Shown in pieces: positions 24,401 to 33,400 of a DNA stretch of 54,552 nt (position 1 is the stretch's first letter; the number at the start of each line of letters is the position of its first letter). Source of the DNA: Girardia tigrina (Eukaryota); contig MQRK01250726.1 of the NCBI GenBank assembly GCA_001938485.1, positions 1 to 54,552 of the forward strand, given 5' to 3'. The position numbers were made by a program.

Positions 24401-27400
24401 TCAGGACAAACAAAAATTTCCATGGTTACAGGTCGCATTTTTAACAGCATTTATGTCATGCTTTCCTTTTCTCGTTTTCGGCACTTCATAAAAGAATTTT
24501 ATCAAGTTAGACCTTTCTAGTAAAGAAAATTGCAGCAATTAACACAAATTAGAAACACATTATTTTGGAAGAAAAAGTCATGGTAATATGTAAACATTAT
24601 TTCGGAACAGAGGGAGTATTATATATTTGAAATCCCTAATAAAAAGTGAATTAGGTAAAATAGCATTTGCGATCTACTTATGTCCAAAAATTTTCATTTT
24701 CTGTTCTAAATGAATTTTCGTTTAATAAAATAATAGTATTTTCGTAAATTTCGCACTTTTTCATCATCCTAATGGACTTTAATCGCTCTGATATTCGTAA
24801 ATTAATTTACTATTTCTGGAAAAGGGATTTAACACCCTCACAGATGACTGACGAAATTAACACGGCCCTTTCCCAAATTAACAGTCTCAAAGAGAACATG
24901 TGAAAGGTGGATTTCCAAGTTTCGTGAAAACAACTTTAGCACAGACGATCAAGTCCGCGAATGGCGGCCCTCTCTTGACATAGACGAGAAGATAATCAAG
25001 TTTCTGACTGAGGACAAGCGTGCAACAACGAGGAACATTAAAGAGAGAATTGATCAGGAAAAAACCACGGTGTGCCGGCATTTAAATGCAATGGGATACC
25101 GATACCTGGAAAATTGCTGGGTGCCACACGCTCAGACGCAACAGAACAAGGATAATCGCAAAAGAATTTGTCAACAGCTATTGGATATTTATAATCGGAA
25201 TGATTTCCTGTCCCAAATCATCAGCTGCGATGAGATATTGGTGTACTGGGACAACGAAGGCGCTTTCAATAATAGATCATGGAGAAAACCGGATGAAAAC
25301 CCACTTGCAACACCGGCACGAAAACTGACAATCCGAAAGCATCTCGCCTTTGGCACAGTAAAGGAGTGTTGTTGTTAGATGTCTTACCTCTAAATGCTAC
25401 AATCAATGCGGATGTCTACTGTACTCAGTTGGATCGTCTCATTATCGCCGTACGGCTGCTAAGACCAAGGACAAGCTGAATGCGCTTGCATTCACCGTAC
25501 TACCACATCCACCATACTCCCCGATCTCTCACTATCTGAGATCTATCTATTCTCTCCAATGAAATGTGCACTTAGAGGAAAGAATTATGCCAGTGTCAAC
25601 AATATCAACGAAGATCTTCTACATTGGTTTGACTAGAAACCGCCTGATTTTTTCCAAAATGGGATACTCAGCCTCCATGGACGTTGGCTGAGATGTATTG
25701 AGCACAATGGCGACTACTTTTCGCATTTACATGACGTGGACGATTGATAAAATATTTTATATTTTATTGTATTTTGGTGTTTTTACGGCAAAACTTATGA
25801 GGCAACCCTATATTATAATTATCAATATAATTGACAAATATATGGTATCTATAAACCGAAATGGGGATATATTTCAGATCAATTTTGAAACAAATGGATG
25901 ACAAATTCAATGATACTGAAATTGTTTCACATAAAATAGCGTGTGAAAAGAAACTGTTAGTTTGAAATTTCAATTGCTTCTTGAAATTCTAAATGAACGA
26001 ACTTTCAAAGATTCAACTAACCCAACATTACCAATTAATATAATCAATAATTAACCTTCTCCAAGTTATTAAAGTAAACAGAATACCAAGAAGAACATAT
26101 CCTACGTTTGAAATGATGTTATTGAAAGCGGTGAAAATATAAATCGGTCTTGTGCACCGAAAATTGTAATAGCATATATCCTGATTGCCAGTTGTATCAA
26201 CAGTCTTAACATGACAATCATTAACACAGTAACTATGATAATAGAGACAACTTGTTGAAAGTTAATAACCAATTGTACAACTGGTAAAGAGTAGAACACA
26301 GATATTATTATCAAATACCTGAAAATAGTAAAAATATGTTTATATATTCAATCAAATCCACAATGAAATACCACAAATATAAAAAGTATTTCCGGTCTAC
26401 AATTTCTGACTTCTTCTTACTTAAATCTGAAACAAACACTGTTGTCTGAAATAAATAAAAACATCTTACGTATTTCATTTGTACATAAAAATGTAAAAAT
26501 ATTTTTAAATAAACAATTTTTAGTTCATTCAATATAATTAGATTCGAATTCAATAATAATAATTTGTGTGAATGTTACATATCGAGATTCGATAAATGTC
26601 AACATTGAAAACAAAATACCTAACATGAATTTATGGTAGATATAAATATACACTGTACATGTCGGCTTTAACGTGAAATGTCTCTAAATTCAATACACAT
26701 TTAATATAGATACATGAATCTGAAAATTCGGATAACAAAGATTATATGCAAAGTCTAGGTACAAATAGTGTCAGCTTATATGCTATATACACTAGACGGG
26801 CACAAAGGGCCTCATTGAGTAGAGGTGGGCACGTTTAGCGTTTAAACGACCGTTTAAATGTTTTCTATTTTTAAGACGTTTAAACGTTTAGCGATTTATA
26901 AACGACCGTATAGTTCTTAAGTTCGTATTTCAAAACTCACAATATTGGTTATACTTTTTTGAAACTTTTATCATGCTACATAAGGGCTATTCATTTGTCA
27001 AGAACACATTGTCCCAATCTATTGAGCTTTTTCATGGGACTATAAATACAAAGTAAGAAAAGTGACATTAATATCATATTTGAGAATTGCATCAAAATTT
27101 TTGGTAAATTTTTTGTTAGGGTAAAATTATTTAAATTATAATTGTTGATTTTCTAAATTTTTTCGAGTAAAAAAGTTTTAAAAACAAGATGTATTGAAAA
27201 GGTATTGCTTTTTGATGAAGCACAAAATTTAAATTTTTTTCATTGGAATAATTAGCTAAACAGTTATTATGATTGGTTTTATGTATATAAAAATATGTAT
27301 GTAGTGTTTTGACATTAAAAATTTTTTAAATTAAAAATTCTACTTTAATAAAATAAATTCATTTGAATGAAATAAGTACAAAAAGTAATTGCAGTTATAA

Positions 27401-30400: not shown

Positions 30401-33400
30401 TTATTAATTATATTACAATATATAATTTTTAATGTTTGATTAATATTATTATAACTAATTTATATTAAATATTCAAAATTTATGTTGTGTAATTTAAAAA
30501 AATTATTAGTACAAATATTTCTGTTTTTTGAACACATTAATTCAAAAGAAATATGTACATAACAAAAACAGATATCTAATTTATCATCTTTAAAATGGCA
30601 CAATTTAGAAAGCAAATCATGGAATTTTAGATGATTTAATAAACACTTATAATAATAATTTGTCTGTAATAAGCACTATATTTGGACATGGGTTATATAA
30701 AAATATATTCCACCTCCTTTAATGCATTTAATTTTCTCCTTTCTGTCGGTTTATTTGTACAAAAGTACAATAACCGTATTGAAAGGAGATTCAACAATTT
30801 TAAATCGTGAATTAATGTTTAAATGTTCATTTAAACAATTTTCTTATTATTTTTAAATAATTTAATTTCAATAATTAAATTTTATAAATATAATACATCT
30901 ATTTATTTTTCAAAATAGTTTAGTTTTTTTCTCACAAGTGATTTTATGAAAATGAAAATAACTTTGAAATTACTTTCTTAAAAATGAATAGCAGAAATTT
31001 TTTTTCTTTTGAAAATAAAAATATTATATGTGATTGTTTTTTAAACATCTTACAATCAAGTATTTTTAATATACTATCAAATACAAGTTTAGATTTTATA
31101 ATTTAACTCTAAATATAGATTCTTCGAGTATTAATTATAGACATATTTAGACAAAATATCAATTCCAGTAAATTATTTATCTTAAATTTTCAAATAACGA
31201 ATATTTATTTACTGCGTTTTATGTACCTTAGCTCATTTAGTCTGATATACAGTAATTATTTGCCGCAATTTTTATAGCCTGTGACATGAAATTTTGCAAA
31301 CTTATTCATTTAACCATATATTTAAATACTAATTTATCAATACATTTATCAATTAAAAAATTATATAAGCTCCAGATTATTGAGGAATATAATCACAATA
31401 AACAAAATCTTTAAAAAATCAATTGATTATTCGTGTTAAACTACCATTTCATCAAGTACACATGCGTAGATATTTTTTTAAAAAATATTAAATATAATTT
31501 TTTTGATCATTAACCACAGAATCCGTTAGCGACATCAAATATCAATTTTATTATATTTAATCACCCTCATTTGACGAAATTTCAAATTTATTATTCAATT
31601 TGTTGTATTATAAATTATCGCAGTGGTTCCCAACCTTTTTGTACTGCCGCCCCCTTTTAAAAAATTGTTTATTCATTTTTTGTGACACCTATTCGATTTT
31701 TTTAGTTGTATTCGAAAATTATATTTTGGAAACAGCTATATGCCCCCCTTGCAACAGTCTCGTGCCCCCTGGGGGAGCGCTTCACAGGTAGGAAACCACT
31801 ACATTAGTTTATCACCACTTCATACAACAGCAAACAATTAAATTATTACGTGAATAGTACCGAATAAAAAAAATAATGTACAGTGACTTGCAGTTAACAG
31901 CAAATTATTGTCGGTCAAGTTGCTACATATTAGAATTGTGATTCTTTCTTTCGACATTTTCCAACCAATGCATTTGTCTTCTTTGAATTTGAATAACAGA
32001 TATATGGTGAAGATCTTCATGACTTCAATCGAAAAATACGAAACAAGACCAAATGAAGGAAACTCTAGGCAAGGAATGTTTACAGATATAGACAGGCCTA
32101 TGACAAAGACCAGGAAAACGAGAATACATGATCAGAAGGAGAGGTGATCAGTGTCCTTCATTAAAAAGTAAAAAATGTTGGTGTATGTGATTGTGTGTGT
32201 GTAATGATTGAGTGTTTGAAGATACCACTATCGCAGTTTGCGAATTAGATTGTTGGAAAGAAGTATATGATACATACTGTTTTAATAAAGAAACGTTTAA
32301 TTTGCTAAACGAAGACCGTTTAAAAGTTTAAAAATTATAAAAGTGCCCACGTCTATCAATGAAATTAGAGATCGTTTAAACGTTTTTTAAACGTTTAATT
32401 TGCTAAACGAAGACCGTTTAAACGTTTAGAAAATTTTAAAACGTGCCCACGTCTATCATTGAGTAACGGAGACCTCAAAATTTAAATCAATCTTTTTTGG
32501 ATTGTTTATTGATTTTTTCGAAAATATAAATCAACCCTTGTAACACACAAACTATTTTCAACACACTGTTTAATTGATAATATTTAAACAAAATATTTAT
32601 CAAAAAAGCCTATATTAAATATTTTAAATAATCAAAATATCTAATATCCAACACTCCCACAATATTCGTCCACAGAAGAATCTGAATCCACAATGTAATC
32701 ATTTAGATAAGACGGTCTTCGTCTTTCTCTACTAGGCCTACTGTTCAATGATTGTTCCTCTTGTGTTTGATTGTCTGGTAGTGATGCAGTTTCCTCCATA
32801 TTTATATAGTATGACTTGGAATTTTCAACCAAGTCAGGCTGTCTAGGTCTAATGTCTGCAAAATGTCTTGGACCGCAAAATCCGTTGCAATTTACTAGAT
32901 ATTTCCTTTGATCTATTCTTTTCACGACAACACCCTTGGCCCATTGCTGTGTACATGGTGTACTGTTTTCCGGTTTTACCCATACTAATTGATTCTCAAT
33001 ATAATCGGGATTTCCACAAAACGGTTCCTTTTCACTTCTTCCAATTATATCTAACCCTATGGGTAAATAGCTATAGAGCGCCGAGATTGGTGTTTCTTTT
33101 CCTTCAGATAGCGTGTTATTATACCACCATAAAGCTTCCAATATGCTGATATTTGATCTGGACGCAATTCTTTTGCTTGTTCTGTGATTCCTTTCTATTA
33201 TTCCGTTGCGGGTAGGTCGATTGATGGCACGATACATGACTCGAACGTTCCACTTTTCCTTTAACTTGTTGAATTCTACCGAATGGAATGTGGTATATTT
33301 ATCGATAATTAGTTCCTTGAGAGACCCGCGTTCGCAGAACAAACTTGAGAATTCTGAGACAATTGATTTGACGTCTTCAGCCTTAATTAATTTCCAAATG

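What the first reader, a model, noticed from the sequence alone, without database searches (positions are those of the whole stretch)
26812..32463. Pack-type hAT transposon carrying a captured SNIP1 (FHA) gene inside a sid-1 intron
Seen: matching 17-bp TIRs and a perfect 8-bp TSD (TCATTGAG) bound a 5.6 kb unit. It holds a BED-finger transposase remnant on + and an intronless SNIP1/Pml1-like FHA coding region on -. Known: 8-bp TSDs and BED fingers are typical of hATs; gene capture by TIR elements is well described in plants (Pack-MULEs) and much less in animals; SNIP1 is a RES-complex splicing factor. Inference: either the element moved with host-gene cargo, or a retrocopy landed in it afterwards. 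The cargo is decayed while the TSD is perfect, which hints that the cargo predates this insertion and may be amplified genome-wide.
[Added by the scan's program, not by the reader: the finding's places include an assembly gap (unread letters, written N; its length is only estimated) at 29568 to 29719. Whether the letters on both sides are continuous or in frame is not known: test that first.]
Basis: partly seen in the sequence, partly recalled or inferred. Interest (0 to 1): 0.8.

Follow-up and report, generated by a model that had tools for sequence, protein, structure and literature searches.

The report
Dead hAT transposon with SNIP1 fragment
A decayed, non-autonomous hAT-type jumping gene in an intron of a sid-1 gene holds a broken piece of the host splicing-factor gene SNIP1; this kind of passenger is already known in animals, and this window alone cannot show how the piece got in.

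Summary
The element's boundaries are real. A 17-nt terminal inverted repeat (16/17) is flanked by an identical 8-nt duplication at 26812-26819 and 32456-32463. It is the only such pair in the window (3 of 200 randomisations give any). All 6 copies of a palindromic subterminal motif lie at the two ends.

The minus-strand SNIP1-like FHA piece is real (Pfam FHA 9.6e-9; human SNIP1 E 2.8e-19). It is 5'-truncated, uninterrupted, and carries 2 in-frame stops. The sid-1 intron setting holds.

The BED-finger remnant was not confirmed, and no transposase domain was found in any of 91 stop-free segments.

The interior is a mosaic, with a nested MITE-like repeat, a pogo-like lead and internal duplications. 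Nothing shows that SNIP1 was captured and moved with the element. The contrast between decayed cargo and a perfect duplication fits about 5% neutral divergence for both. Weak signs lean towards a processed copy.

No eukaryotic genome was available, so copy number and the parental gene are untested. Pack-hAT elements are already described in animals (Tan et al. 2021). Interest is low to moderate.

The parts
26812..26819 (.). Left copy of the 8-nt target-site duplication (TCATTGAG)
26820..26836 (+). Left 17-nt terminal inverted repeat, begins TAGAG (YARNG type)
26837..26900 (.). Left subterminal region with 3 copies of the palindromic motif CGTTTAAACG (up to 1 mismatch)
   Evidence: all 6 window matches lie in the two subterminal regions
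27575..27606 (.). Distal copy of a 32-nt AT-only direct repeat (28/32) that brackets the SNIP1 block. Possible flanking duplication or dispersed motif.
27962..28639 (-). SNIP1-like FHA pseudogene fragment, given as one part by its outer bounds. Homology to human SNIP1 residues about 212-388 of 396. The 5' half is absent. 2 in-frame stops, 0 frameshifts. It sits in a GC-richer block (0.31-0.37) between AT-rich flanks (0.11-0.16).
28623..28654 (.). Proximal copy of the 32-nt direct repeat, abutting the 5' edge of the SNIP1 block
29096..29554 (+). Unconfirmed: no Pfam or PDB match, an atlas lead only, and a low-confidence fold.
29568..29719 (.). Assembly gap (152 N, length only estimated), left unfilled. 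An (AT)13.5 microsatellite starts at its right edge.
29720..31500 (.). Very AT-rich interior (GC 0.07-0.38 per 100 nt, mostly below 0.2). It holds TAT/39-nt tandem arrays and an internal dispersed duplication (30202-30318 vs 30917-31039, 78%).
31610..31812 (.). Nested MITE-like unit: 27-nt inverted repeat arms, 78% complementary, 149 nt apart
31841..32131 (-). Stop-free 97-aa segment with a lead to DDE_1 (pogo-type) transposases. Lead only.
   Evidence: score 0.90; 20 of 30 hits in that family set; no Pfam hit
32291..32362 (.). Inner second copy of the right end (93% to 32389-32462). It includes a TIR copy at 32339-32355 (15/17 to the left TIR) and a TSD-like heptamer.
32439..32455 (-). Right 17-nt terminal inverted repeat (16/17 to the left one)
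32456..32463 (.). Right copy of the 8-nt target-site duplication
26031..26261 (-). Nearest confirmed sid-1 exon, 551 nt from the left TSD. SID-1_RNA_chan positions 239-293 of 594; SIDT1 residues 468-521 of 827.
47356..47656 (-). Candidate upstream sid-1 exons. Two stop-free pieces give weak, collinear matches to SID-1_RNA_chan positions 38-67 and 66-103.
   Evidence: E 0.021 and 0.0015, below the cut-off; not confirmed in PDB

Best explanation
This is one insertion of a non-autonomous hAT-like DNA transposon: 5,636 nt between the duplications, counting a 152-N gap of estimated length. It lies in an intron of a minus-strand sid-1 homologue.

The copy encodes no recognisable transposase. It could only ever have moved in trans, through a family transposase that recognises the 17-nt TIRs and the palindromic subterminal repeats. 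That step is inferred from how hAT elements such as Hermes work; it is not shown here.

The interior is a mosaic of very AT-rich filler and several foreign GC-richer blocks. One block is a 5'-truncated, uninterrupted, decayed copy of the C-terminal FHA half of the host gene SNIP1, on the strand opposite to the element's putative sense and the same strand as sid-1.

My preferred reading is that this piece is a processed (cDNA-type) or single-exon copy that came to lie inside the element as an inert secondary passenger, like the other nested pieces. I do not read it as a DNA-level Pack-type capture that drove a genome-wide family. Whether it arrived before or after the element's last move is not resolved.
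For: SHOWN.
- TIR, TSD and subterminal repeats are well beyond chance.
- Of 91 stop-free segments of at least 28 aa in all six frames, 0 match a transposase domain and 1 matches FHA.
- The SNIP1 identity is solid: 72.9 bits, E 2.8e-19, ranking above plant DDL (47.4 bits) and yeast Pml1 (29.3 bits). The match continues collinearly to residue 388 of 396 in the same frame.
- Of 3 upstream minus-strand segments, 0 match SNIP1.
- There are 2 stops in 165 codons.
- In the printed alignment, several canonical FHA phosphopeptide-contact positions are substituted (my reading of it).
- The GC block coincides with the coding homology and is followed by about 400 nt of AT-rich sequence, up to a 28/32 direct repeat whose partner abuts the 5' edge of the block. 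Only 1 of 60 local-composition randomisations reach 28/32.
- Other foreign pieces lie inside the same element: a nested MITE-like inverted repeat and a DDE_1 lead.

FROM THE LITERATURE. In animals, only 1.4% (four) of Pack-TIRs were multicopy. That pipeline discarded intronless copies of multi-exon parents as retroduplicates (Tan et al. 2021, PMC8277862; passages and Methods section read).
Against: - There is no clean poly(A) run before the distal repeat.
- The 32-nt repeat is AT-only, does not extend further, and its motif occurs a third time, inverted, at 31474-31500. It may be a dispersed low-complexity motif rather than a duplication made by insertion.
- The intron structure of the parental SNIP1 gene is unknown, so 'uninterrupted' carries little weight.
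- hAT is the commonest Pack-TIR superfamily in animals (208 of 370), so a DNA-level capture is not unlikely a priori.
- The gap could hide sequence, including a transposase remnant.
Confidence: 0.45

Rival explanations
1. True Pack-hAT. The SNIP1 fragment was copied into the element at the DNA level, by gap filling or template switching during repair, and then moved with it. It possibly forms a multicopy family.
For: The host-gene fragment lies between matched termini with a perfect 8-nt duplication. hAT elements account for 208 of 370 animal Pack-TIRs, and microhomology of 1-36 nt occurs at breakpoints. No clean poly(A) is present. The copy is a gene fragment rather than a whole gene, as is usual for Pack elements.
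Against: The window holds no second copy of the ends or the cargo. The cargo is uninterrupted coding sequence that runs to the natural C-terminus, followed by an AT-rich tail and a flanking direct repeat. Published pipelines would set such a case aside as a possible retroduplicate. Multicopy Pack-TIRs are rare in animals, at 1.4%. The decay-versus-TSD argument carries no weight.
Confidence: 0.3
2. Assembly artefact. The two sides of the 29568-29719 gap are not truly adjacent, so the '5.6 kb unit' is a scaffold construct, or it hides much more sequence.
For: The gap length is only estimated. It abuts an (AT)n microsatellite in extremely AT-rich, repeat-laden DNA. Nothing in the window spans it.
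Against: The left and right flanks carry the same 8-nt word directly against matched TIRs, which two unrelated insertions would not share. sid-1 exons keep their strand and model order across the region.
Confidence: 0.05
3. The SNIP1-like reading frame is part of a live nested gene, either the organism's own SNIP1 or a young chimeric gene, rather than a pseudogene.
For: It is a 152-codon ATG-started ORF with an FHA match above Pfam's cut-off.
Against: The FHA domain is cut by in-frame stops, 2 in 165 codons. The N-terminal half is absent. Canonical FHA contact residues are substituted. The single-sequence fold has low confidence, pLDDT 36.7.
Confidence: 0.03

Closest known systems
Pack-TIR / Pack-hAT elements of animals (Tan et al. 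2021, Nat Commun, PMC8277862)
   Same: A non-autonomous TIR element of the hAT type has a host-gene fragment between its termini. It is intronic and shares the host gene's strand, so co-transcription is possible.
   Different: No parental copy could be examined. The internal region is about 5.6 kb, above the 5 kb limit of that survey. The cargo is old and decayed, whereas that survey required at least 90% identity to the parent. An intronless coding copy would have been filtered out there as a possible retroduplicate.
Non-autonomous hAT elements with Hermes/Ac-type ends
   Same: It has an 8-nt TSD, imperfect 17-nt TIRs, a YARNG terminal motif, and short palindromic subterminal repeats clustered within about 140 nt of each end.
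   Different: Neither a transposase domain nor the autonomous partner is available. Only one of the two specified positions of the nTnnnnAn target preference is met. The right end is present twice in tandem.
Processed pseudogene (retrocopy) nested in a transposon
   Same: It is a 5'-truncated, uninterrupted coding copy that runs to the natural C-terminus. An AT-rich tail follows, and a flanking direct repeat brackets it. It is decayed by stops.
   Different: There is no clear poly(A). The flanking repeat is long (32 nt), imperfect and of low complexity.
Pack-MULEs of plants (recalled; named in the abstract of PMC8277862)
   Same: The principle is the same: gene fragments carried between TIRs.
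   Different: The superfamily and TSD length differ. Pack-MULEs are typically short and often multicopy.
SNIP1 / DDL / Pml1 FHA proteins (RES-complex and spliceosome components)
   Same: The fragment's best solved relatives are SNIP1, then DDL, then Pml1, all over the FHA domain.
   Different: It covers only the C-terminal 45% or so of the protein, is interrupted by stops, and has substitutions at canonical FHA positions.

Membership tests
hAT superfamily (non-autonomous member) | 8-bp target-site duplication | tested here: met
   Identical 8-mers abut both TIRs. Joint TIR+TSD test: 1 pair in the window, and 3 of 200 randomisations give any. The feature is as stated in PMC3014272 and PMC10368747 (passages read).
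hAT superfamily (non-autonomous member) | Short TIRs with a terminal YARNG motif | tested here: met
   The termini read TAGAG and TAGAC. The TIRs are 17 nt and match at 16/17. The motif is as stated in PMC3014272.
hAT superfamily (non-autonomous member) | Target preference nTnnnnAn | tested here: inconclusive
   The TSD has A at position 7 but C, not T, at position 2. The preference is described for Hermes and is a tendency, not a rule.
hAT superfamily (non-autonomous member) | Subterminal repeats near both ends (transposase/BED binding sites) | tested here: met
   All 6 window matches to the palindromic 10-mer lie within 70 nt of the left end or 140 nt of the right end. Expected 2.11; 2 of 100 shuffles reach 6. 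That the repeats bind a transposase is inferred, not tested.
hAT superfamily (non-autonomous member) | hAT transposase (BED, RNase-H-like DDE, hATC dimerisation) encoded here or by a related autonomous partner | tested here: not met
   Of 91 stop-free segments, 0 match any such domain. The BED candidate is negative in Pfam and PDB. A partner elsewhere in the genome could not be tested. This is expected for a non-autonomous copy, so superfamily assignment rests on the ends only.
Pack-TIR (Tan et al. 2021 criteria) | Both termini belong to the same TIR family and flank non-TE host sequence | tested here: met
   Matched TIRs and subterminal motifs. A SNIP1 FHA fragment lies inside. No family consensus was available to check terminal coverage.
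Pack-TIR (Tan et al. 2021 criteria) | Unambiguous parental copy elsewhere, not linked to a TE | not testable with these tools
The window holds no other SNIP1-like sequence.
Pack-TIR (Tan et al. 2021 criteria) | Not an intronless copy of a multi-exon parent (retroduplicate control) | not testable with these tools
   The criterion was read in the Methods. The cargo is uninterrupted over 165 codons, but the parental gene structure is unknown.
Pack-TIR (Tan et al. 2021 criteria) | Co-mobilisation: several copies with the same cargo and different TSDs | not testable with these tools
   There are 0 further copies in the 54.5-kb window. No genome-wide census was possible.
Processed pseudogene (retrocopy) | Poly(A) tract at the 3' end | tested here: not met
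   There is no A run before the distal repeat, only A-rich 13-nt tandem units.
Processed pseudogene (retrocopy) | Flanking direct repeats of its own | tested here: inconclusive
   A 28/32 direct repeat brackets a 1,048-nt unit. It is one of only 3 such repeats in the element, and 1 of 60 randomisations reach that score. It is AT-only, does not extend, and has a third, inverted occurrence.
Processed pseudogene (retrocopy) | Lacks the parent's introns | not testable with these tools
   The coding homology is uninterrupted. The parent was not available.
SNIP1/FHA family | FHA domain above the curated cut-off, with SNIP1 as the best named relative | tested here: met
   Pfam FHA scores 36 bits against a cut-off of 20.7. 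SNIP1 scores 72.9 bits, ahead of DDL at 47.4 and Pml1 at 29.3.
SNIP1/FHA family | Complete open reading frame | tested here: not met
   2 in-frame stops in 165 codons. The N-terminal half was not found.

The most novel reading that the evidence does not exclude
The element is one member of a multicopy Pack-hAT family that has spread a SNIP1 FHA fragment through an invertebrate genome. Copies sit in introns of genes such as sid-1, where host transcription turns them into substrates for small-RNA pathways or chimeric transcripts. Multicopy Pack-TIRs were found in only four cases in 100 animal genomes.
Probability: 0.1. Interest if true: 0.5.

Novelty: new member of a known kind. Interest (0 to 1): 0.25.

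Why it matters
If the SNIP1 piece really travelled with the element, it would add an invertebrate case to the few animal examples of TIR transposons that duplicate and scatter host-gene fragments. The cargo would be an unusual one: the phosphopeptide-binding domain of a spliceosome factor.

As the evidence stands, this is a dead, non-autonomous hAT-like element with a decayed gene fragment in an intron. That matters for annotation. The FHA ORF should not be called a gene, and the sid-1 intron is inflated by nested repeats. It does not challenge current understanding.

Tried and rejected
I scanned stop-free segments instead: 10, and all 91 of at least 28 aa without N through alignment container A4. 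Besides FHA, three sub-cut-off matches appeared: ACP_SdgA_C at 0.0011, DUF5438 at 0.009, and Reovirus_L2_MT1 at 0.041 (13.6 bits against a cut-off of 27). I treat all three as chance.

2. BED finger. Both frame pieces were tested separately and never joined. There was no Pfam hit at E up to 10, no PDB hit, and only a 0.88 atlas lead. The single-sequence fold reached pLDDT 44.5. That is too poor for a fold search, so none was run.

3. The fold of the SNIP1 piece reached pLDDT 36.7 and was not used.

4. NCBIfam gave nothing meaningful.

5. I looked for LTRs around the neighbouring retroelement pol remnant and for any second copy of the element. Self-BLAST found none.

6. Rfam and tRNA scans of the window found 0 matches, so the GC-rich block at 31.6-31.8 kb is not a recognisable tRNA-derived SINE.

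7. The candidate N-terminal sid-1 exon was not confirmed in PDB.

9. Literature. A search for SNIP1 + transposon + FHA domain + captured found 63 papers with at least 3 of the terms. Of the 10 listed, none concerns a transposon-borne SNIP1, judging by title and the start of the abstract.

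
Full report
SCOPE AND LIMITS. The window is AT-rich (A+T about 0.70) and dense with eukaryotic transposon remnants. 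It also carries exons of a sid-1 homologue. I do not take it for human sequence. Copy number, the parental SNIP1 gene and the autonomous partner therefore stayed unchecked. The supplementary tables of the key paper were also closed. Spliced models were not joined. The sid-1 exons and the two SNIP1 pieces were each searched on their own, and the joined step was left out.

THE GAP FIRST. The N run at 29568-29719 was left as it is. No reading frame that matters crosses it. The BED-like ORF ends in a stop before the gap, and the SNIP1 piece lies more than 900 nt to the left. The first letters after the gap are an (AT)13.5 microsatellite in DNA of 7-9% G+C, which is a common cause of an assembly break. 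Continuity cannot be shown from the window. It is supported indirectly in two ways. The left and right halves carry matched TIRs flanked by the same 8-nt word, which two separate insertions would not share. The sid-1 exons also keep their strand and model order across the region. The element's length (5,636 nt from TIR to TIR) is therefore an estimate, and the gap could hide sequence.

THE OBSERVATION. The left end reads TSD then TIR at 26812-26836, and the right end TIR then TSD at 32439-32463. The TIRs match at 16 of 17 positions. With up to 3 mismatches the motif has only 3 sites in 54.5 kb, against 0.03 expected. The third site is an inner copy of the right end.

The 8-mer itself is unremarkable: 4 sites against 2.57 expected. 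An 8/8 match at fixed positions has P = 5.2e-5. A window-wide joint search for identical 8-mers abutting inverted 17-mers (at least 15/17, 0.1-10 kb apart) gave 220 raw pairs. Of these, 219 were (TA)n or AT-only arms. With at least 4 G/C required in the arm, exactly one pair remains, which is the finding, and 3 of 200 local-composition randomisations give any.

A palindromic 10-mer (CGTTTAAACG, up to 1 mismatch) has 6 sites in the window. All lie within 70 nt of the left end or 140 nt of the right end.

These features fit the hAT description quoted in the literature: an 8-nt duplication, imperfect 17-nt TIRs beginning TAGAG/TAGAC, and subterminal repeats. The sources are 8-bp TSDs and YARNG termini in PMC3014272 (passage read), and 17-bp imperfect TIRs, the nTnnnnAn preference and BED-bound subterminal repeats in Hermes in PMC10368747 (passages read). 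The target preference is only half met.

WHAT IS INSIDE. On the minus strand a stop-free 152-codon piece matches Pfam FHA (9.6e-9; 36 bits against a cut-off of 20.7). It also matches human SNIP1 residues 212-349 of 396 (E 2.8e-19), ahead of plant DDL and yeast Pml1. The next piece in the same frame has SNIP1 residues 355-388 as its best match. That match is weak on its own (E 0.12) but collinear. Over the 165 codons of homology there are 2 in-frame stops and no frameshift. Several canonical FHA contact positions are substituted in the printed alignment.

None of three upstream minus-strand segments resembles SNIP1, so the copy is 5'-truncated. The homology coincides with a block of 31-37% G+C set between flanks of 11-16%.

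The BED finger could not be confirmed. The + strand ORF has no Pfam family, no PDB relative, a 0.88 atlas lead to a cluster in which only 12% of members carry zf-BED, and a low-confidence fold (pLDDT 44.5). The short other-frame piece also has no Pfam match.

Across all 91 N-free, stop-free segments of at least 28 aa in six frames, FHA is the only family above its cut-off, and no transposase domain appears. This copy is non-autonomous.

A MOSAIC INTERIOR. The element also contains:
- TAT and 39-nt tandem arrays;
- a dispersed internal duplication, 30202-30318 vs 30917-31039, at 78%;
- a nested MITE-like unit with 27-nt inverted arms at 31610-31812;
- a 97-aa segment with a lead to pogo-type DDE_1 transposases (0.90, 20 of 30 hits; no Pfam match);
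- a tandem second copy of the right end, 32291-32362 vs 32389-32462, at 93%.
The inner copy of the right end includes a TIR (15/17) and a TSD-like heptamer. I cannot explain this duplication. The perfect 8/8 duplication belongs to the outer end.

SETTING. SID-1_RNA_chan matches on the minus strand run in model order:
- 47510-47656 (positions 38-67, E 0.021)
- 47356-47568 (66-103, E 0.0015)
- 26031-26261 (239-293, E 3.3e-22)
- 22480-22626 (301-340)
- 22266-22466 (341-404)
- 7175-7312 (501-537)
- 7022-7171 (536-575)
The two upstream matches fall below the cut-off, and PDB did not confirm the one piece tested (47356-47568). However, the exon at 26031-26261 aligns to SIDT1 residues 468-521 of 827. 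Some 460 residues must therefore be encoded upstream, and the 550 nt between that exon and the element cannot hold them. None of the element's 91 segments matches SID-1. An intronic position is the sound inference. The SNIP1 piece is on the same strand as sid-1.

HOW THE SNIP1 PIECE GOT THERE. The window cannot settle this. That does not hold. With these codons, 6-8% of single-base changes make a stop. At 5% divergence, 1.5-2.0 stops are expected, and both 8-mers stay intact with P = 0.44.

Signs that lean towards a processed copy or secondary passenger:
- uninterrupted coding sequence running to the natural C-terminus;
- 5' truncation;
- about 400 nt of AT-rich tail after the coding block;
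- a 28/32 direct repeat whose copies sit at the 5' edge of the block and at the end of that tail. It is one of only three such repeats in the element, and 1 of 60 randomisations reach that score;
- other foreign pieces in the same interior.

Signs against:
- no poly(A);
- the repeat is AT-only and does not extend;
- its motif recurs, inverted, at 31474-31500;
- the parent's intron structure is unknown.

In the animal survey of Tan et al. (PMC8277862; abstract, passages and Methods section 14 read), 208 of 370 Pack-TIRs are hAT. Most are single-copy products of gap filling, and four are multicopy. Intronless copies of multi-exon parents were discarded as retroduplicates.

I therefore rate a passive secondary passenger at 0.45, a true co-mobilised Pack-hAT at 0.30, an assembly artefact at 0.05 and a live nested gene at 0.03. 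The rest is unassigned.

NEIGHBOURS (described only). About 180 nt to the right of the element lies a minus-strand retroelement pol remnant at 32644-34245. It holds RVT_3/RNase H (1.3e-8) and an integrase-like stretch with only weak matches. These lie in at least two separate stop-free stretches. No RT, protease, gag or LTR pair was found. This is presumably the virus-like stretch the operators mention.

VERDICT. The boundaries, the SNIP1 fragment and the sid-1 setting are real. The transposase remnant is not shown. The Pack-type reading is possible but unproven. The kind of element is already known in animals.

Noticed in passing
window 32291-32462: The right end of the element is present twice in tandem (93% identity, about 98-100 nt apart). 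The inner copy keeps a TIR (15/17) followed by a heptamer resembling the target-site duplication. The origin is unexplained; it could be an aberrant end duplication or the relic of an earlier flank.
   Followed up: partly
window 31610-31812: A nested MITE-like unit with 27-nt inverted arms (78% complementary) lies in a GC-richer block of the element. No clear duplication flanks it.
   Followed up: partly
window 31841-32131 (-): A 97-aa stop-free segment has an atlas lead to pogo-type DDE_1 transposases (0.90) but no Pfam match. It is possibly a fragment of another DNA transposon inside the element.
   Followed up: partly
window 32644-34245 (-): A retroelement pol remnant (RNase H/RVT_3 plus an integrase-like stretch) lies about 180 nt from the element's right end. 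No RT, gag or LTRs were detected, and it is broken into at least two stop-free stretches.
   Followed up: partly
window 43866-46117 (+): A non-LTR retrotransposon reverse transcriptase (RVT_1, E 1.6e-34) is flanked by two further long ORFs on the same strand.
   Followed up: no
window 5324-6352 (+), 24848-25633 (+), 42120-43089 (+): Three Tc1/mariner-type transposase remnants (HTH_Tnp_Tc3_2, DDE_3 and weak HTH_48 matches) are each spread over more than one frame.
   Followed up: no
window 7799-8263 (-): A GIY-YIG nuclease ORF, a Penelope-like or related element by recall, lies next to the last sid-1 exons. A 73-nt relative at 43353-43425 is 78% identical to 8023-8095.
   Followed up: no
window 20476-21077 vs 35474-36105: A 600-nt inverted repeat pair at 82% identity lies in sid-1 introns on either side of the element. 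It is an unclassified repeat family.
   Followed up: no
window 49771-50490 vs 52150-52869; 51972-52196 vs 53650-53873: A direct repeat of about 730 nt at 94% and an inverted repeat of 225 nt at 99% suggest a recent duplication or a young repeat near the 3' end of the window.
   Followed up: no
window 16190-16239: A second assembly gap (50 N) lies inside the sid-1 gene span. It was left untouched.
   Followed up: no
window 7022-47656 (-): The sid-1 homologue spans at least 40 kb, with introns packed with transposon remnants. Exons for model positions 104-238 and 405-500 were not located.
   Followed up: partly
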